A stretch of 64,000 nt of DNA from an uncultured Bacteroidaceae bacterium (GCA_964454295.1 CAYVTV010000001.1:1111-65110); one strand, 5' to 3'. Numbered from the stretch's first letter, positions 5,895 through 64,000 are shown. Translations and numbers: made by a program. Notes: generated by a model from the letters alone, not told the origin.

Positions 5895-7385
5895 ATGCTC
5901 CCTTTTCATTATAATAGTTCTTCATACAAAAGATACATATTCGTGTCCCTTTTTCGGATTGTTGGTATAATCCTCCTGGGGTCAGTTATGGTATATGGTT
6001 TGAATACCCAGCTTTCAAGGTCTGCATTTTATGTTTTTATACTTCTTTTCTTTTATTATACAAAAGATAATATTACAGGTATTGCTGTTTTATTTATTTT
6101 AGCATTACATCCCTGGGGCCTTTTTTATTACAAGCCTTATGATTGGATATTTTCACTTACTAATACTGTGGGAGTAAGTTTTAAAAGTATGATCGGCGTG
6201 GTGATTTTATTAAAGTTTTTTATTTATAAATCATGGAAGAAAAATTTTATAAGGGATGCATTCCTTACATATTACAAGATCTTTGGTTTTTATGTGGGTT
6301 TTCTGATATTATGGGGACTAATTTTCGGATATTCTGCGGCTTCATTTTTTAGTTTAATTCATAGTTTACCTGCCCTGGTTTTATTCTTAGTTATATCCCG
6401 GGTATTTGATCCAAAAGCTCTATATTTATTTAACAGAATTATTTTTATTTTTACCTTAATTCATACATTTATTTCCATAGTGGATATTATTTCCGCAGGA
6501 AAAATAACCGAACTATTATTTTTTAACAGGCTGGCTTCAACAGGTGCTGTATGGGATGAAGAATTAATCCGTTTGCTAGGAGGAATAACTTTTGCTTTAT
6601 ATTCTTTTATTACAGGGCTCTATTATCTTGCAAGCAGGAAAGCACAATTTTCAACTTGGTTTTTATGGCTGGTTGTTTTAACCTCCTGGTTTTATATTCT
6701 GAATAGCGCAACAAGGGGATGGATGATTGCTTCAATTATTATGACAGGTTTTTTCATCCTTTACTATTCCAGAAGATTATTATTTGGAAAGAAAAACTTA
6801 ATAATTGCGTTTATAATTATAGCGTTGGGTATTTATTTTACGCCAGGGTTAATAAAAAAAAATGTTAATGTTGCTTTCGATCGTTTTGAAACTGTTGAAT
6901 TTATTCTGGAAGGGGATATGACTGCTGGAGAAACAGCCAGACGCTGGGATGAGAGGGGGCCGCGGGTATTAACCAGGTTTATGGAAAGTCCTGTATTTGG
7001 TTTTGGATATAGTAAAGTTTCAATGGAATACTATGACGGGCATGTAGGCAATCATCTTCTGCTATTAATGGGTGGAGTGGTAGGACTAGCTATTGTTTGG
7101 CTGATTGTTTTATCCCTCATTATTAAGATTTTTTTACTGGAAATAAAAAATAAAGGATATACCGGAATTTTTGTTTTTGGAATGGGATTAATTGCCATTA
7201 TGATCATTCACTCTACAAGCAGAGTTATGATTTCATTCATAATGCCATTTGATTCCGCATTTCTTCTGGCTTTAATATTTAACCAAATTAATGCTCATAT
7301 ACAGGAAGTGAATTATAATAACTTCTATGAGATTAACAATAATTTAAATGAAATTAAAGAAAATCCTTCGTTACATACTTCCTAA
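5895..7385 (+). CDS. O-antigen polymerase (Wzy) / O-antigen ligase-like membrane protein
   Basis: 496-aa protein with more than 10 predicted TM segments and one larger loop (RRWDERGPRV), located in a polysaccharide locus. Confidence 0.65.
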   Translation: MLPFHYNSSSYKRYIFVSLFRIVGIILLGSVMVYGLNTQLSRSAFYVFILLFFYYTKDNITGIAVLFILALHPWGLFYYKPYDWIFSLTNTVGVSFKSMIGVVILLKFFIYKSWKKNFIRDAFLTYYKIFGFYVGFLILWGLIFGYSAASFFSLIHSLPALVLFLVISRVFDPKALYLFNRIIFIFTLIHTFISIVDIISAGKITELLFFNRLASTGAVWDEELIRLLGGITFALYSFITGLYYLASRKAQFSTWFLWLVVLTSWFYILNSATRGWMIASIIMTGFFILYYSRRLLFGKKNLIIAFIIIALGIYFTPGLIKKNVNVAFDRFETVEFILEGDMTAGETARRWDERGPRVLTRFMESPVFGFGYSKVSMEYYDGHVGNHLLLLMGGVVGLAIVWLIVLSLIIKIFLLEIKNKGYTGIFVFGMGLIAIMIIHSTSRVMISFIMPFDSAFLLALIFNQINAHIQEVNYNNFYEINNNLNEIKENPSLHTS

Positions 7386-13916: not shown

Positions 13917-14999
13917 GTGAAAAAAATTAAAGCCATCATACTTTCCAATGAACTTCCTAATGATCATTTACTTTGGGTAAAAGCATGCGAAAAATTTAAA
14001 GAACAGTTGGAATACCATATTGTCAATCTGACTCAAAACAACTGGCTTGATGAAATCCAAAGCTTTCCTTTTGAAATCTTCCTTGCGAAACCTCCCGGCC
14101 TTACCGCCCTTTTCAAACAGCTTTACGACGAACGTATCTACATCCTTGGCAAAGTGCTGAATTATGAGATATTTCCCTCTCCGGAAGAAATATTTATTTA
14201 CGAAAACAAACGCCTTCTCTCTTTCTGGTGTAAGGCCAACGGTATACCCCATCCCTCCACGCATGTGTTTTATAGTCGTGAAGAAGCAGAATCATTCATA
14301 AACACTTCCAACATACCCCTTGTTGCCAAAACCAATATCGGGGCTTCAGGCAGTGGGGTAAAAATCCTTCATGACATCAAAGAAATAACTATATATATAC
14401 AAAAATCCTTTTCACAGAGAGGCGCACCCAAACGCATTGGACCTAATCTGGACAAAGGAGGCTTATTGAAAAGAGGGTTTCACTATGTCTTCCACCCAAC
14501 AGATATCCCAAAGAAACTCAGTATTTACAAATCAAAGTGCTTAGATCGCCAGGCAGGGTTTGTTATTTTACAGGAATACATTCCCCACAGTTTTGAATGG
14601 AGGGTGGTGCGTATCGGTGATTCCTTCTTCGCGCATAAAAAATTAAAGTTGGGTGAAAAAGCCAGCGGTTCTCTTAAAAAAGGCTACGATAAGCCACCTC
14701 TTGCCCTGTTAGATTTTGTGAAAAATATTACAGATAGACACCAGTTCTTCAGTCAGGCAATAGACATTTTCGAAACAGGACAAGGCTACCTGGTCAATGA
14801 AATGCAGTGCATCTTCGGACAAAGCGAATCTTATCAGATGCTGGTGAATGGTAAACCGGGAAGATACAGGTTCATAGAGGGAAAGTGGACATTCGAGGAA
14901 GGAGATTTTGCGAGGAATCAATGCTACGATCTCAGGATAGAATTCCTGATTGAAAAATGCAGTAAATCAACCCTTTATACATCTCTGAAAAATTCATAA
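13917..14999 (+). CDS. ATP-grasp domain protein (RimK-like carboxylate-amine ligase)
   Basis: Apparent GTG start. IPLVAKTNIGASGSGVKIL and ILQEYIPHSFEWRVVRIGDSFFAHKK match the ATP-grasp pattern. Confidence 0.7.
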   Translation: MKKIKAIILSNELPNDHLLWVKACEKFKEQLEYHIVNLTQNNWLDEIQSFPFEIFLAKPPGLTALFKQLYDERIYILGKVLNYEIFPSPEEIFIYENKRLLSFWCKANGIPHPSTHVFYSREEAESFINTSNIPLVAKTNIGASGSGVKILHDIKEITIYIQKSFSQRGAPKRIGPNLDKGGLLKRGFHYVFHPTDIPKKLSIYKSKCLDRQAGFVILQEYIPHSFEWRVVRIGDSFFAHKKLKLGEKASGSLKKGYDKPPLALLDFVKNITDRHQFFSQAIDIFETGQGYLVNEMQCIFGQSESYQMLVNGKPGRYRFIEGKWTFEEGDFARNQCYDLRIEFLIEKCSKSTLYTSLKNS

Positions 15000-46320: not shown

Positions 46321-46326
46321 TAATAA

Positions 46327-46463
46327 TAACAGTTCGTTAAATTAGAATAAAACCCAAGGGCGCAATGGTGCGAAGTGCTGATTATCAGCAGAAAGCAAAA
46401 TACCGGAATGAATTAACAAAACGCTCATTATCGGCATGGTTCAAAAACATAACGAACTATTAT
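46327..46463. mobile_element. MITE-like element, family 2, copy X (~137 bp)
   Basis: Terminal inverted repeats taacagttcgtta ... taacgaactatta(t), flanked by TAATAA on both sides. It is collinear with copy Y over its full length. Confidence 0.7.
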
Positions 46464-46523
46464 TAATAACGTAAGCATATATTAAAAAAATGCGTATTTT
46501 TAGGAAAATTAATTTTTTATGCC

Positions 46524-58035: not shown

Positions 58036-58055
58036 TGTGATATATTAAAATAAAT

Positions 58056-58180
58056 GCACCTCGAAAAACCTCCAACTTCTGGGTTATACAAAATTTGTAA
58101 AGTCCTCATTCCGACGAAAATTGTCGGAACTCCGGCTTTACAAATTTTGCAAGCCTTGAATTTGGAGTTTTTAGAGGTGC
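58056..58180. repeat. 125-nt imperfect inverted repeat with a nested central hairpin
   Basis: gcacctcgaaaaacctccaacttc...caaaatttgtaaag pairs with ctttacaaattttg...gaatttggagtttttagaggtgc. The central hairpin is ttccgac-gaaaatt-gtcggaa. Confidence 0.7.
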
Positions 58181-58242: not shown

Positions 58243-58331
58243 CATCCGGAAGTTCGTATAAATAAAAATTAAACGCAAAGGCAAATCTGCGCCTTTGCAC
58301 CTTTGCGTTTTTTTAATTTAACGAACTATTA
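58243..58331. mobile_element. Family-2 element, copy Z (internally shortened, reverse orientation)
   Basis: The reverse complement reads taatagttcgttaaattaaaaaaacgcaaaggtgcaaaggcgca..., matching the first ~45 nt of copy Y. The remainder folds as aaacgcaaagg...cctttgcgttt. Confidence 0.65.
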
Positions 58332-58532
58332 GTAACTACTCAGGTATTTAGGCTATAGGTATTTAGGCTTTAGGAATATAGTTGCATGTAATAAATGGCT
58401 TGTTTAAACTTCCGAAGAGACATACTTGATAAGAAAATATTGAACAAGAAAAAGTGTCAGGCGTCTGGACCAGATTTTGTAACGGCATTCTAAAAGCCTT
58501 CAGTCTTCAGTCTAAATAACCTGAATAGTTAC
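58332..58532. mobile_element. MITE-like element W (~200 bp) with ~23-bp terminal inverted repeats
   Basis: The left end gtaactactcaggtatttaggct (58332-54) pairs with the right end agtctaaataacctgaatagttac (58509-32), with 21 of 24 positions complementary. It directly abuts copy Z. Confidence 0.55.
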
Positions 58533-60081: not shown

Positions 60082-60288
60082 TTAAATTTTTTGTACCCAT
60101 CTTTCAGTCAATATTTTTCCTGAAATGGAGATAACGATTTCTTTTACAGGGAGGTTGACAGTGGAATTTTGCTGAGCAAGTCTTACCATCTGCAGGAGAC
60201 CGCCACAGCAGGGGACTTCCATGCGTATAACGGTGAGGGTGTTAATTCTTGTTTCTTCGATGAGTTTCTTTTTGCATCCCATTATCAT
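60082..60288 (-). CDS. Small Cys-containing hypothetical protein (possibly the C-terminal remnant of an Fe-S protein)
   Basis: 68-aa ORF with MEVPCCGGL. Its start overlaps the ung stop (ATGA). I cannot assign a family with confidence. Confidence 0.3.
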
Positions 60289-60965
60289 TCAACATTCCAC
60301 TCAACCGGATCCAATCCGTTTTCTTCCAGGTATTTATTTGCAAGAGAGAAGTGTTTACACCCGAAAAATCCGTTAAAGGCGGAAAGTGGTGAAGGGTGGG
60401 CGGCCTGAAGAATGAGATGTTTAGATTGATCTATCAGATTTTTTTTAGCCCTGGCGAAATTTCCCCAGAGGAGGAAGACCACGTTTTTTTTCTGTTCTGA
60501 GATTTTTCTTATCACTGCATCGGTGAACTGTTCCCATCCCTTACCCTGGTGTGAGCCGGCCTGGTTTGCCCTTACAGTCAGGGTGGCATTAAGGAGGAAC
60601 ACTCCCTGTTCCGTCCATTTTTCGAGGTTCCCGTGATTTGGTATGGCGATACTCAGGTCGTTATTCAGTTCCTTAAAAATATTTACAAGCGAAGGTGGGG
60701 GGGTAATGCCTGCTGGAACAGAAAAACATAAGCCATGGGCTTGTCCGGGACCGTGATAAGGATCCTGGCCGAGGATTACTACTTTAACATTATCAAAAGG
60801 TGTTTTGTCGAATGCATTAAATATAAGGTTTCCCGGAGGATATATGATATGTTGTTTTTTTTCCTTTACAAGGAATTCTTTAAGTGATGTAAAGTAGGGA
60901 GCATCAAATTCTTCAATAAGAATTTCTTTCCACGAAGGGTGGATTTTAGGATCAACTTTCTGCAT
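60285..60965 (-). CDS. ung: Uracil-DNA glycosylase (family 1)
   Basis: [22 protein letters not shown] and HPSPLSA motifs. Confidence 0.95.
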
Positions 60966-61032: not shown

Positions 61033-63228
61033 TTACTCCTGGGTTAGTTTATCAGGTTCCTGTAAAATAATTCTTGCCACATTGGTTGCGTGGGAGTAAA
61101 TAGTAGCCAGTAATGTCATCAATTCAAGGTGTGTTTTGCTCGTTTTTACGGAACTTTCTATCAATCCGGCCAGCCGTTTATAGTGGCTGCGCTGGAATTC
61201 CAGTGCCACCTGTTTATATTTCTGATGTTTCTTTTCCATGAGGAGTGCCTTTTCCAGGTTATATTCCCTGAAAACAGCTATAGCTCTGGAGATTTGTTTT
61301 TCAACCTGGAGATGGAATTCAGATAGTTCTTTTTTCCCTTCCTCGCTGAATTCGAGGTCGGAATTAACCCATCTTCCCGCTTTTTCGAGATATAAAGCAC
61401 TTACAATATCGGCGATCTGTTCAAATTCTTTAACAGTATAGAGCATTTCGAAAGCTTCATTTATCCGTTCTTTTTTTGTATGGCTTGAAGCCGTTTTCAG
61501 TACGAAGTTATTAATACTGTCGGTAAGGAAATCCACCTCCTCTTCTTTTTGCATCATCCAGGCGACATCGGGGTGTTCTTTTACCACAAAAGGGCTAAGG
61601 AAGTTATTCACCATATCCTGCACAATATGGGCAAGGTGGACAATTTCTTCCTTAACGAGACTGAGTGCGAGGGATGGTGGCATATCCGGTTCATCCCTGA
61701 GGTATTTTGTTTTCAGCAGTGTTTTCTCTTCTGTTTTAACGGGGATGATCCTCTCGATAAGTTTTGCGAAGGTATTCAGGAATGGCAGGAGGATCAGGGT
61801 TATGAGCACGTTGAAGAGAGTATGTGCATTGGCAATTTGTCTTGGCAGTTCCGCTGCAACCAGATTCATCTGGTCTGAGTGACCTGCTGCAGGGGATATG
61901 GCTTTGATCAGCCTGATAAAGTCGGGGATCCACCATACGATAATTAGAACTCCCATAATTTTAAACAGGGTATGAGCGAGGGCAACTCTTTTGGCTTCTC
62001 TGGAGATATTGATTGAAGCGAGGATAGCTGTCACTGCAGTCCCTATGTTGGCACCGAGGAGGAGGGGCACACTTGCTTCGAGACTTAGGAGTCCCTGGGT
62101 TGCCAGCACTATCATTATTCCGATAAATGCTCCGCTGCTTTGAATAAGTGCAGTAAACAGTGCACCGGTGATAATTCCGGTAACCGGATTTTCAAGTTTT
62201 AAAATAAATTGAATAAAGGGTTCGTAGGTTCTCAGGGGATACATTGCTTCCGACATGATATGCATGCCGAAGAACAGGATCCCGAAGCCCAGAATAGCTT
62301 CACCGGTGTATTTTATTTTTTCTTTTTTAGGGAAAGTCTGCACCGCAAATCCCAGGGCTATCATCAGCAGTGCATAGTCGGTAAGTTTAAAGGCAATTAG
62401 CTGGGCTGTGATGGTTGTACCTATGTCGGCTCCCAGGATTATTCCCAGCGACTGTGCAAATTTTATAAGCCCGGCATTAACAAAGCTGATAAGCATTACT
62501 GTTGTTGCGCTGCTGCTCTGGATAACCATTGTCACGAATGTGCCCAGTCCCAGTGCATAGATACGATTGCGTGTAAGGCTGCTGAGAATACTCCGCATCT
62601 TATCTCCGGCAGACTTTTGCATTCCGGTACTCATCATGTTCATTCCCAGGAGAAAAAGACCCAGTCCGCCCAGCAGTCCGAATATCAGCATTATCAACCA
62701 GTTGTTTGCCAGGGCGCTGAAACGGAATATAACGAAGCCGTTGTCGGCAGAACCTTTGATTCTGGCCAGCAGCGTATATTCCCCTTTTTTGGTTCCCAGG
62801 GTAACCTGTGTCACAGCTATTCCGGCGCTGTCGGTAGCAGATATCTTCGGGTCAATTATTAGTCCGGCAGAACCTTGTGGTCCGCTTAGTTCCTCAAATA
62901 CTACAGGGATATTTGCGAGCGGATGGCCGTTCTCATCAGTAACTTTAACCCGGAGGGGATTAGTGAGTATCCTGCCTGTCCTGGCCTGCTGGTTATCGCC
63001 TGTATAGCTGGTAATACCGGGGTTAACCTGTTTGTCGATATGAAGGGTGTCGGCGGCGTTCGCTTCCGGGGAGAGAGAAAGAAGGAGGAAAAGGAGTAAG
63101 AGAGTTTGTAATACTTTGTATGTATTTCTTCCTTTTAGTATTAAATAATAGTTCGTTAAATTAAAATAAAACGCAAAGGCGCAAAGGCGCAATATGTTGA
63201 TTATTAACAATATGAGTAATTTAAGCAT
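61033..63228 (-). CDS. Na/Pi cotransporter family protein with a PhoU-like C-terminal region and an extra N-terminal Ig-like periplasmic domain
   Basis: The Na/Pi-cotransporter TM core ([13 protein letters not shown]..., [11 protein letters not shown]) is followed by PhoU-like helices. The first 28 codons of the annotated ORF are encoded by MITE-like copy Y (see findings). Confidence 0.85.
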
Positions 63229-63281
63229 GAATTGTTAAAGTATTCATTAACAGCGGGATATGAAAATATAACAAACTATTG
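63146..63281. mobile_element. MITE-like element, family 2, copy Y (136 bp), inserted in the 5' codons of the Na/Pi transporter gene
   Basis: TIRs taatagttcgtta ... taacaaactattg, flanked by the direct repeat ATTAAA (63140-45 and 63282-87). Confidence 0.75.
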
Positions 63282-63320
63282 ATTAAAGACATACGAAATT
63301 TAATATAAGCCTGAATCTCT

Positions 63321-64000
63321 TTAATAGATCAAAGGAATATCAAACTTCTGTTCTTTTTTTCCTGGTTTTTTGCATCCGAACATCAGGTTCAGTCCGAGGC
63401 GGAAATTTACAAAACGAGCTTCATAGGGCCAGAATGCTGCTGACGGGCCTGTATCAGTGATAAGGTAAAGGTTGAAAGGCCCGGGTTTAAATGAAAGACC
63501 TATTCCCAGGTTTTTATAATACCCGTCGATTATTGAATAGGAGAAAGCAGTGCTGAGCATCCGTATGGGGTAAAAGTTAGCTGAGAGGGTAAACTGCTGG
63601 CGGATATCTCCATCAAGAATTTCAGTACGTGACAGGGCGCCGAAACTGATTCTTGGGTGAGGGTATAGTGCGACACCGGCATACACTTTTGCGGGAAGGG
63701 AGGTTGAATAGGGATTTTCAGCTGCAGAAAATTTGAATACCTGTTCAAGGGAATCAGCCAGATCCTGCATGAAGTCTTCTGAGTCCATATTGACTTCCAC
63801 ACCCATAAAATCATATTCAGCATTATTTTCGAGGTTATACACGTAATCATTCCAGTTGATCCATCCGAAGTCAACCAGGCTGGCTGAAACCTGCAGCCAT
63901 TGCAAAGGCCTGAAGTCGACACCTATATCCATGGCAAGTCCTGAGTTTTTTGGGTTAAGGATAACAGAGGGAAGGTCGCCGGGAATTTCCAGGTCCCGTG
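63321..64000 (-). CDS. Hypothetical beta-rich (outer-membrane-like) protein; the 5' end lies beyond the window
   Basis: The frame stays open upstream of the Met at 63932 to the window edge. The sequence alternates hydrophobic residues and is aromatic-rich, and it ends ...FDIPLIY. Confidence 0.5.
   Translation of the reverse strand, partial: RDLEIPGDLPSVILNPKNSGLAMDIGVDFRPLQWLQVSASLVDFGWINWNDYVYNLENNAEYDFMGVEVNMDSEDFMQDLADSLEQVFKFSAAENPYSTSLPAKVYAGVALYPHPRISFGALSRTEILDGDIRQQFTLSANFYPIRMLSTAFSYSIIDGYYKNLGIGLSFKPGPFNLYLITDTGPSAAFWPYEARFVNFRLGLNLMFGCKKPGKKEQKFDIPLIY

What the first reader, a model, noticed from the sequence alone, without database searches (positions are those of the whole stretch)
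63140..63292. A MITE-like insertion sits inside codons 3-4 of the Na/Pi cotransporter gene, and precise excision restores an ATG and a signal peptide
Copy Y (63146-63281) has TIRs TAATAGTTCGTTA / TAACAAACTATTG and is flanked by a 6-bp direct repeat, ATTAAA.
- Excision test: deleting the element plus one ATTAAA copy (142 bp) joins a minus-strand ATG at 63292-63290 in frame to the transporter ORF. The result is [32 protein letters not shown]..., a textbook signal peptide.
- Present sequence: that ATG now opens only a short dead-end ORF.
- Replacement start: the transporter ORF instead starts at an ATG inside the element (63228), which adds 28 element-encoded residues ([28 protein letters not shown]).
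- No alternative: there is no ATG, GTG or TTG start codon between the element and the signal peptide.
The element has therefore either inactivated the gene or given it a new N-terminus.
Basis: seen in the sequence. Interest (0 to 1): 0.75.

Follow-up and report, generated by a model that had tools for sequence, protein, structure and literature searches.

The report
MITE replaced a transporter gene's start
A 136-bp mobile DNA element landed in the fourth codon of a phosphate-transporter gene in an uncultured Bacteroidales bacterium, yet the gene still looks alive, apparently using a start codon supplied by the element; this is a tidy but not unprecedented example of such gene remodelling.

Summary
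A 136-bp element lies at 63146-63281. It has 13-bp terminal inverted repeats and a perfect 6-bp target duplication (ATTAAA). Removing 142 bp joins the ATG at 63292 in frame to give [32 protein letters not shown]|A.... The element belongs to a real repeat family: X and Z in the window, and A, B and C in a sister strain. The region around Z differs between strains that are 99.3% identical.

Independent JGI assemblies from two samples carry the same insertion, so it is not a chimera. No empty site was found anywhere.

The closest orthologs (72% identity or less) lack the element. Each has an ordinary 22-26-residue signal peptide starting 31-55 nt after the upstream DUF5723 gene.

The gene is not decaying:
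- Between the two insertion-bearing strains there are 9 synonymous and 4 non-synonymous changes (pN/pS 0.13; neighbours 0.15).
- All 75 residues invariant across orthologs are kept.

Best reading: the start was replaced by the element's ATG at 63228. The ancestral ATG now opens a 23-codon leader ORF whose stop overlaps that ATG (ATGCTTAA). The original signal-peptide cleavage site should still give the same mature protein.

This is a new member of a known kind, of moderate interest.

The parts
63146..63281 (+). Element Y, a 136-bp non-coding MITE-like element. The family's 'left' end is at 63146. The transporter gene reads through it from the right end to the left end.
   Evidence: nhmmer family profile E = 2.7e-39.
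63146..63158 (+). Left terminal inverted repeat, TAATAGTTCGTTA (CAATAGTTCGTTA in the sister strain).
63269..63281 (+). Right terminal inverted repeat, TAACAAACTATTG.
63140..63145 (.). Target-site duplication copy 1 (ATTAAA).
   Evidence: Chance about 0.0005-0.004.
63282..63287 (.). Target-site duplication copy 2 (ATTAAA). It spans the last base of ancestral codon 2, codon 3 and two bases of codon 4.
63290..63292 (-). Inferred ancestral ATG of the transporter, 28 nt after the DUF5723 stop codon.
   Evidence: The spacing is comparable to orthologs (31-55 nt).
63221..63292 (-). 23-codon leader ORF now opened by the ancestral ATG ([23 protein letters not shown]). Its TAA (63223-63221) overlaps the new start in ATGCTTAA.
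   Evidence: It is intact in the sister strain, with one I>V change.
63226..63228 (-). Element-borne ATG. It is the first canonical start of the present 731-codon ORF and the start used by the public gene calls (P0001, P0121).
63055..63144 (-). Retained ancestral signal-peptide coding region: [10 protein letters not shown] (basic n-region), [15 protein letters not shown] (h-region), PEANA (c-region, A-x-A).
   Evidence: hydropathy and charges.
61033..63228 (-). Na+/Pi cotransporter gene (Big_1 + 2x Na_Pi_cotrans + PhoU) as it now reads.
   Evidence: pN/pS 0.13. 75/75 invariant positions kept.
63321..64000 (-). 3' part of the upstream DUF5723 gene. The order DUF5723 > Na/Pi > UDG is conserved in orthologous loci.
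46327..46463 (+). Copy X of the same family (about 71% identical to Y). It is intergenic, 6 nt after the IleRS stop and 60 nt before a DksA/TraR-type gene. It is present in all 6 contigs recovered from 5 samples.
58247..58331 (-). Copy Z, a short form made of two family ends facing each other. The sister strain has a full copy (A) plus an inverted truncated copy (B) at this locus.

Best explanation
A non-autonomous transposable element (MITE) of a lineage-specific family inserted into codon 4 of a Na+/Pi cotransporter gene and duplicated ATTAAA. This happened before the sampled strains diverged. The 142 extra bases cut the ancestral ATG (63292) off from the gene, but the gene was not killed.

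Shown:
- The only frame of the element that stays open to its exit is in register with the gene, and it begins with an ATG (63228).
- The gene has stayed under purifying selection since the insertion.

Inferred:
- Translation now starts at the element's ATG. It may be helped by termination-reinitiation, because the 23-codon leader ORF that begins at the ancestral ATG stops within the sequence ATGCTTAA that contains the new start.
- The new protein has a two-part leader. First comes an element-encoded hydrophobic segment ([22 protein letters not shown]). Then comes the original basic region (KGRNTYK), hydrophobic core and A-N-A cleavage site.
- The basic loop should stay cytoplasmic, and signal peptidase should still cut after ANA. 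The mature transporter (ADTLHIDK...) would then be unchanged, which would explain why the insertion was tolerated.
For: Insertion anatomy:
- TIRs, the 6/6 TSD and the exact in-frame restoration are confirmed.

The family is real:
- Five full-length copies, 71-86% identical, share their termini. There are also two partial copies.
- No Rfam family matches.
- The Z locus is rearranged between strains that are 99.3% identical.

Not an artefact, and older than the strain split:
- The same insertion is in an NCBI MAG contig and in JGI contigs from two samples, with 2 SNPs inside the element.

The gene is alive:
- The ORF is 731 codons and intact in both alleles.
- There are 9 synonymous and 4 non-synonymous differences, pN/pS 0.13, against 0.15 for pooled neighbours.
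- The binomial P against neutrality is 5.6e-4, or 0.004-0.03 under harsher assumptions.
- 75/75 invariant and 211/220 highly conserved ortholog positions are kept.

Orthologs:
- They have plain 22-26-aa signal peptides right after DUF5723, and no element.

Translation context:
- The leader-ORF stop overlaps the new ATG.
- Both ATG contexts are weakly structured: -4.7 and -3.6 kcal/mol, against a background of -10.2 +/- 4.8. In SD-less Bacteroidota this is what tunes initiation (PMC6847099 abstract).
- There is no terminator-like site in the element.
Against: - No empty site was recovered, so the ancestral state is inferred only from the TSD and the frame logic.
- The selection test rests on 13 substitutions between two lineages.
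- Nothing shows which start is used. Two in-frame TTGs (63210, 63192) are alternatives. Neither ATG has the favourable A at -3.
- Export and cleavage of the two-part leader is a positive-inside-rule argument, not a prediction from a trained tool or an experiment.
- If the first hydrophobic segment inserted N-in, the topology would be inverted.
- The open frame is not a family property. The equivalent frames of copies A and C contain stops (read). The rescue is therefore a lucky or selected accident, not a design.
Confidence: 0.62

Rival explanations
1. The insertion inactivated or silenced the transporter. The 731-codon ORF would be a recent pseudogene that has not yet picked up disabling mutations.
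For: - The ancestral start is disconnected, and the ancestral ATG's frame ends after 23 codons.
- At only about 0.6% divergence between the strains, an intact ORF is weak evidence on its own.
- The new leader has an extra hydrophobic segment that could misroute the protein.
Against: - pN/pS is 0.13, equal to neighbouring housekeeping genes, and differs from neutrality (P = 5.6e-4).
- All 75 ortholog-invariant residues are retained.
- The insertion is present in all three assemblies that cover the site.
Confidence: 0.13
2. The gene is functional, but translation starts somewhere other than ATG 63228. Candidates are an in-element TTG (63210 or 63192) or a rare non-canonical codon (ATA/CTA) just past the element. 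The leader would then be shorter than annotated.
For: - Two in-frame TTG codons follow the ATG inside the element.
- Bacteroidota lack SD guidance, so start choice depends on local context (PMC6847099).
- The three closest orthologs appear to use GTG starts.
Against: - ATG is the first and strongest canonical start in the ORF.
- It sits in a weakly structured context and directly at the stop of the upstream leader ORF.
- There is no ATG/GTG/TTG between the element and the h-region.
Confidence: 0.2
3. There was no insertion into a gene. On this view the extended N-terminus is ancestral and the flanking ATTAAA repeat and in-frame ATG are coincidence.
For: No empty site was found in any collection.
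Against: - The 136 bp between the repeats is a member of a repeat family found at six other loci.
- Orthologs lack it and lack any comparable extension.
- The TSD chance is 0.0005-0.004.
- The restored start sits where ortholog starts sit.
Confidence: 0.02

Closest known systems
Bacterial MITEs in general (e.g. Correia elements of Neisseria; MITEs of Porphyromonas gingivalis within Bacteroidota)
   Same: Small (136 bp) and non-coding, with terminal inverted repeats, a short AT-rich target duplication and many diverged copies. Most copies sit in the short AT-rich spacers just upstream of genes: X is 60 nt, C 36 nt and A 23 nt before a start codon.
   Different: There is no sequence relation to any described family that I could test: no Rfam hit and no plasmid hit. 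The TIR 18-mer gave only chance hits in 185,579 species genomes and in viral contigs. No parent IS was identified. Comparison with P. gingivalis MITEs rests on the literature title only (PMC4596501), not on an alignment.
Neisseria REP2 repeats and Borrelia IR sequences (small repeats that bring a promoter, RBS and ATG fused to downstream ORFs; Delihas 2011, PMC3184786)
   Same: A small repeat supplies the initiation codon, and the first codons, of a host gene.
   Different: In REP2/IR the ATG-to-ORF fusion is a recurrent property of the repeat family. Here only copy Y is fused to a gene. The equivalent frame is closed by stops in copies A and C. No promoter was demonstrated: only one weak sigma-70-like match was found, at chance level.
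Rickettsia palindromic elements and Coxiella QMITEs (MITEs translated as part of host proteins; PMC10969869, PMC5896051)
   Same: MITE-derived sequence becomes part of a protein that stays functional.
   Different: RPEs are in-frame internal insertions that are read through entirely, and QMITE2 extends a 3' end. Y is 142 bp with its TSD, which is not a multiple of 3. It breaks the ancestral frame and replaces the start. Its peptide lies in a leader that is probably cleaved off.
Extended (two-part n1-h1-n2-h2-c) signal peptides of autotransporters
   Same: The present 58-residue leader has the same layout: a short charged N-terminus, a first hydrophobic stretch, a second basic region, a second hydrophobic core and a cleavage site.
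   Different: The resemblance is recalled from general knowledge and was not tested. There is no sequence similarity. The first segment here is much more hydrophobic, and it arose by accident from a transposon.

Membership tests
MITE (miniature inverted-repeat transposable element) | Small size (tens to a few hundred bp) with no transposase gene | tested here: met
   136 bp. The only ORFs are the 23-codon leader and the read-out frame.
MITE (miniature inverted-repeat transposable element) | Terminal inverted repeats conserved among copies | tested here: met
   13-bp TIRs, 11/13 complementary (12/13 in L020). The same termini occur in five aligned copies.
MITE (miniature inverted-repeat transposable element) | Target-site duplication of fixed length flanking the copies | tested here: inconclusive
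   Y: perfect 6/6 ATTAAA (chance 0.0005-0.004). X: TAATAA on both sides, but offset by 1 nt on the right. C: 4/6 (GTATAA vs GTAATA). A abuts B, so it has no readable TSD.
MITE (miniature inverted-repeat transposable element) | Multiple dispersed copies in one genome | tested here: met
   Seven loci in about 73 kb across two strains. nhmmer gives E from 1e-9 to 1e-39.
MITE (miniature inverted-repeat transposable element) | Evidence of mobility: presence/absence polymorphism with a clean empty site | tested here: inconclusive
   The Z locus differs between strains (A+B in L020, Z in the window). That looks like a deletion or rearrangement rather than a clean empty site. Y and X are filled in every contig recovered.
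MITE (miniature inverted-repeat transposable element) | A parent IS or transposase with matching TIRs | not testable with these tools
   No further TIR pair in the window: the 5912/6518 pair lies inside a 496-aa ORF. The rest of this genome is not in the searchable collections.
RPE-type in-frame coding insertion | The element is read through in frame from the host start to the host remainder | tested here: not met
   142 bp shifts the frame by +1. The ancestral frame stops after 23 codons, and the gene frame has stops upstream of ATG 63228.
REP2/Borrelia-IR-type start-codon cassette | An ATG and an open exit frame are conserved in the repeat family and recurrently fused to genes | tested here: not met
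   Only Y is fused. The corresponding frames of copies A and C are closed by single-base indels, and X, A and C are intergenic.
Insertion-inactivated pseudogene | Relaxed selection or disabling mutations after the insertion | tested here: not met
   pN/pS 0.13 (neighbours 0.15). No stop or frameshift in either allele. 75/75 invariant residues kept.
Sec-type signal peptide (restored N-terminus) | Basic n-region, hydrophobic h-region of about 10-15 residues, small residues at -3/-1 | tested here: met
   K6, R8 and K12; the h-region is [15 protein letters not shown], with Kyte-Doolittle (11-residue window) up to 2.9; the c-region is PEANA|A. This was judged by rule of thumb only. SignalP or an equivalent was not available.

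The most novel reading that the evidence does not exclude
The element may have been co-opted as a working 5' module in an SD-less bacterium. Ribosomes would load at the ancestral ATG, translate the 23-codon leader ORF and re-initiate at the overlapping element-borne ATG (ATGCTTAA). The element-encoded hydrophobic segment plus the old signal peptide would act as a two-part cleavable leader, so a transposon insertion inside a coding sequence would be phenotypically silent because it lies upstream of a signal-peptidase site.

A far more exotic variant is also not excluded. Because the TSD duplicates codon 3, a ribosome could in principle 'hop' from TTA (63286-63284) to the identical TTA (63144-63142) across the TIR-paired element, which would recreate the ancestral protein. 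I put that variant below 1%.
Probability: 0.3. Interest if true: 0.5.

Novelty: new member of a known kind. Interest (0 to 1): 0.3.

Why it matters
This is a clean natural example of how a transposon hit inside a coding sequence can be survived. The insertion lies upstream of a signal-peptide cleavage site and happens to bring an in-frame ATG, so the mature protein need not change. That suggests the extreme 5' ends of secreted and membrane protein genes are unusually tolerant landing sites. It also suggests that N-terminal 'extensions' in automatic annotations of MAGs may sometimes be MITE scars.

It also offers a natural test case for start-site choice and translational coupling in Bacteroidota, which lack Shine-Dalgarno guidance. 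The phenomenon itself, a small repeat donating coding sequence or a start codon, is already documented in Neisseria, Borrelia, Rickettsia and Coxiella.

Tried and rejected
1. Empty-site search. One metagenome scan used a 22-mer that is present in both the filled and the empty allele. It returned a single contig, and the site was filled. Exact look-ups of P0001, the UDG protein and the Rrf2 protein gave either no record or contigs too short to reach the site. The JGI allele P0121 is filled in both samples.

2. Homology searches for same-species fragments. A 162-aa N-terminal query returned nothing, not even the self-hit. A 270-aa query found nothing above 58% identity. All three searches are now used.

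3. Element search in 185,579 species genomes, viral contigs and plasmids. The 18-mer TIR gave 12 + 2 seed hits, none extending into the element. Plasmid blastn found nothing. L034, an IMG/VR contig, has two sites sharing the 16-mer. They are SD-led phage intergenic motifs with unrelated interiors, so I rejected them.

4. A TIR-like inverted pair at 5912/6518 as a longer relative or parent IS. It lies inside a 496-aa ORF and is a chance match.

5. Known RNA family: none at Rfam gathering thresholds in the whole window.

6. Integron attC-like site. I considered this because of the GTTAAAT/…TAAC ends. I rejected it because the right-end core does not fit RYYYAAC and the genomic contexts are not cassettes (reading).

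7. Element-borne promoter or terminator. The sigma-70 scan was at chance level and found no terminator. By eye I saw no exact Bacteroidota-type TAnnTTTG motif. This was not tested rigorously.

8. Kozak-like A at -3. Neither ATG has it, so it does not discriminate between them.

Full report
**1. What is in the sequence**

- A 136-bp segment (63146-63281) ends in TAATAGTTCGTTA and TAACAAACTATTG, 11/13 complementary. It is flanked by ATTAAA on both sides (63140-45 and 63282-87).
- An identical hexamer at this spacing occurs at 0.05% of window positions, and at 0.4% if both hexamers are AT-rich.
- Removing the element plus one ATTAAA (142 bp) places the ATG at 63292 in frame with the long ORF. This gives a 705-aa protein beginning [32 protein letters not shown]|ADTL.
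- That N-terminus has a basic n-region (K6, R8, K12), a 15-residue hydrophobic core and an A-N-A cleavage motif.
- The ATG is the only canonical start in the restored ORF. It lies 28 nt after the stop of the upstream DUF5723 gene.
- In the present sequence the same ATG opens a 23-codon dead-end ORF. The long ORF (61033-63228, 731 aa) begins at an ATG inside the element.
- The gene encodes Big_1 + Na_Pi_cotrans + PhoU.

**2. The element is a member of a real repeat family**

- BLAST and a profile built from aligned copies find Y, X (46327-46463) and a short two-ended form Z (58247-58331) in the window.
- A sister-strain contig (L020) carries Y', A (14693-14827), B (14840-14947, inverted and truncated) and C (about 1050-1182).
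- Full-length copies are 71-86% identical and share the termini C/TAAYAGTTCGTTA ... TAACRAAYTATWG. The family is therefore old rather than a recent burst.
- All copies other than Y are intergenic, mostly in the last few tens of nucleotides before a start codon.
- Target duplications are perfect for Y only. They are near-perfect or offset for X and 4/6 for C.
- No Rfam family matches anywhere in the window.
- The TIR 18-mer gives only chance seeds in 185,579 species-representative genomes and in viral contigs. The whole 136-bp element found nothing in plasmids.
- I could not identify a parent IS.

**3. Comparison with other assemblies**

- A metagenome scan with a flank 22-mer that would match either allele returned one JGI contig. 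Exact-protein look-up then gave about 19 kb of it, and an identical contig from a second sample.
- These contigs are 99.3% identical to the window. They carry the same element at the same position, with two SNPs inside it (63259 and 63146). The second SNP makes the TIRs 12/13 complementary.
- So the insertion is not an assembly chimera, and it predates the split of these strains.
- No empty site could be found. The other samples that contain this organism have only short contigs that miss the site. Two further homology searches surfaced no same-species fragments.
- The closest orthologs (72% identity or less) keep the gene order DUF5723 > Na/Pi > UDG and contain no family member.
- Their annotated starts look truncated. 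An in-frame upstream GTG in each gives a normal 22-26-residue signal peptide starting 31-55 nt after the DUF5723 stop: MRPQSLLSYLVAFLLFYSLESEA, MQNRKSLPLLLVFLLFLCMKGEA and MRKFQIILILLGFLMILPASGWA.
- More distant orthologs look the same, and typical lengths are 680-705 aa.
- The restored N-terminus therefore fits the family architecture and position. Its sequence is too divergent to be confirmed residue by residue.

**4. Is the gene dead?**

Both strains carry the insertion, so the differences between them arose after it.
- The transporter shows 9 synonymous and 4 non-synonymous differences (pN/pS 0.13). Seven neighbouring genes pooled give 0.15.
- Under neutrality about 77% of changes should be non-synonymous. 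The binomial probability of 4 or fewer out of 13 is 5.6e-4, and it stays at 0.03 or below even if the neutral fraction is set as low as 0.6.
- Two of the four replacements lie in the leader: Y28C in the element-encoded part and E55G in the c-region.
- Both alleles are intact over 731 codons.
- Against 116 orthologs, the window protein keeps 75/75 invariant and 211/220 columns conserved at 90% or more. That places it mid-range among the orthologs themselves.

These results favour a gene that still works. The counts are small, and this is the weakest quantitative link in the argument.

**5. How it most likely works**

Shown:
- Of the three frames leaving the element toward the gene, only one is open. 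It starts with ATG 63228 and is in register with the transporter.
- The leader ORF from the ancestral ATG ends at TAA 63223-63221, inside ATGCTTAA, so its stop overlaps the new start.
- Both ATGs sit in weakly structured RNA: -4.7 and -3.6 kcal/mol, against -10.2 +/- 4.8 for random 63-mers.
- No terminator-like hairpin is present in the element.

Inferred:
- In Bacteroidota, which lack Shine-Dalgarno guidance and tune initiation through local structure and nearby nucleotides (PMC6847099), ribosomes can start at 63228. They would do so either directly or by termination-reinitiation after the leader ORF.
- The resulting 58-residue leader has two hydrophobic stretches separated by the original basic region KGRNTYK.
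- By the positive-inside rule the basic loop stays cytoplasmic. The second stretch then exports the Big_1 domain as before, and signal peptidase cuts after ANA. The mature protein would be unchanged, which would explain why the insertion is tolerated.
- The open frame is not a family feature. Copies A and C have stops in the equivalent frame. This looks like a lucky insertion that selection let through, not a designed cassette.

**6. Rivals**

- Inactivation (0.13) is disfavoured by the selection and conservation data.
- Use of another start (0.2) is a variant of the main model that I cannot exclude. Candidates are the in-element TTG codons at 63210 and 63192, or a non-canonical codon.
- 'No insertion at all' (0.02) is contradicted by family membership, the TSD and the orthologs.

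**7. Relation to what is known**

- The element meets the structural criteria of a bacterial MITE. A clean empty site and a parent IS are missing.
- Small repeats that donate an ATG (Neisseria REP2, Borrelia IR; PMC3184786) or are translated within host proteins (Rickettsia RPEs, Coxiella QMITEs) are documented.
- This case differs in three ways. It replaces a start rather than being read through. It is a one-off within its family. Its peptide lies in a probably cleaved leader.
- I therefore rate it a new member of a known kind, interest about 0.3.

**8. Seen in passing**

The intergenic region at 58.05-58.55 kb holds three different small TIR elements. Two of them are absent from the 99.3%-identical strain, so small elements have been turning over recently in this lineage.

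Noticed in passing
window 58050-58178: A palindromic insert of about 129 bp (TIR GCACCTCGAAAAACCTCCAA / TTGGAGTTTTTAGAGGTGC, 75% self-complementary). It is from a different family and is a single copy in the window. The 99.3%-identical sister strain cleanly lacks it (L020 reads TATATTAAA|TTAATAAGG). There is no obvious TSD.
   Followed up: partly
window 58332-58532: A third small element (201 bp) with TIRs of about 21 bp, GTAACTAYTCAGGT(T)ATTTAG (2 matches against 0.01 expected). It directly abuts copy Z and lies about 27 nt upstream of the tRNA-synt_1b gene start (58559). It is absent in L020.
   Followed up: partly
window 58247-58331 vs L020 14693-14947: Copy Z looks like a deletion derivative of a head-to-head pair (full copy A plus inverted truncated copy B) that the sister strain has at the same locus. 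In L020, copy A ends 23 nt upstream of the aminoacyl-tRNA synthetase ATG, so that essential gene's promoter must lie within or beyond the element.
   Followed up: partly
L001 2971, L002 1596, L005 2459: The three closest orthologs of the transporter appear to be annotated with truncated N-termini. An upstream in-frame GTG in each gives a proper signal peptide, which suggests GTG starts are common for this gene.
   Followed up: partly
window 60082-60295: The small ORF overlapping the UDG 3' end (Pfam AF_0155 in the JGI call) differs from the sister strain by a 1-bp indel, with 68 aa in the window ORF list against a 70-aa call in L020. This may be a frameshift or a non-gene.
   Followed up: no
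window 46321-46469; L022-L027: Copy X sits 6 nt after the IleRS stop and 60 nt before a DksA/TraR-type zinc-finger gene. It is present in all six contigs recovered from five samples. Its flanking TAATAA repeats are offset by one base on the right side.
   Followed up: yes
L020 vs L021 (JGI 3300027051 and 3300005144): Contigs from two different JGI samples are 100% identical over 18,575 bp, so they count as one strain and not as two independent observations of the insertion.
   Followed up: yes
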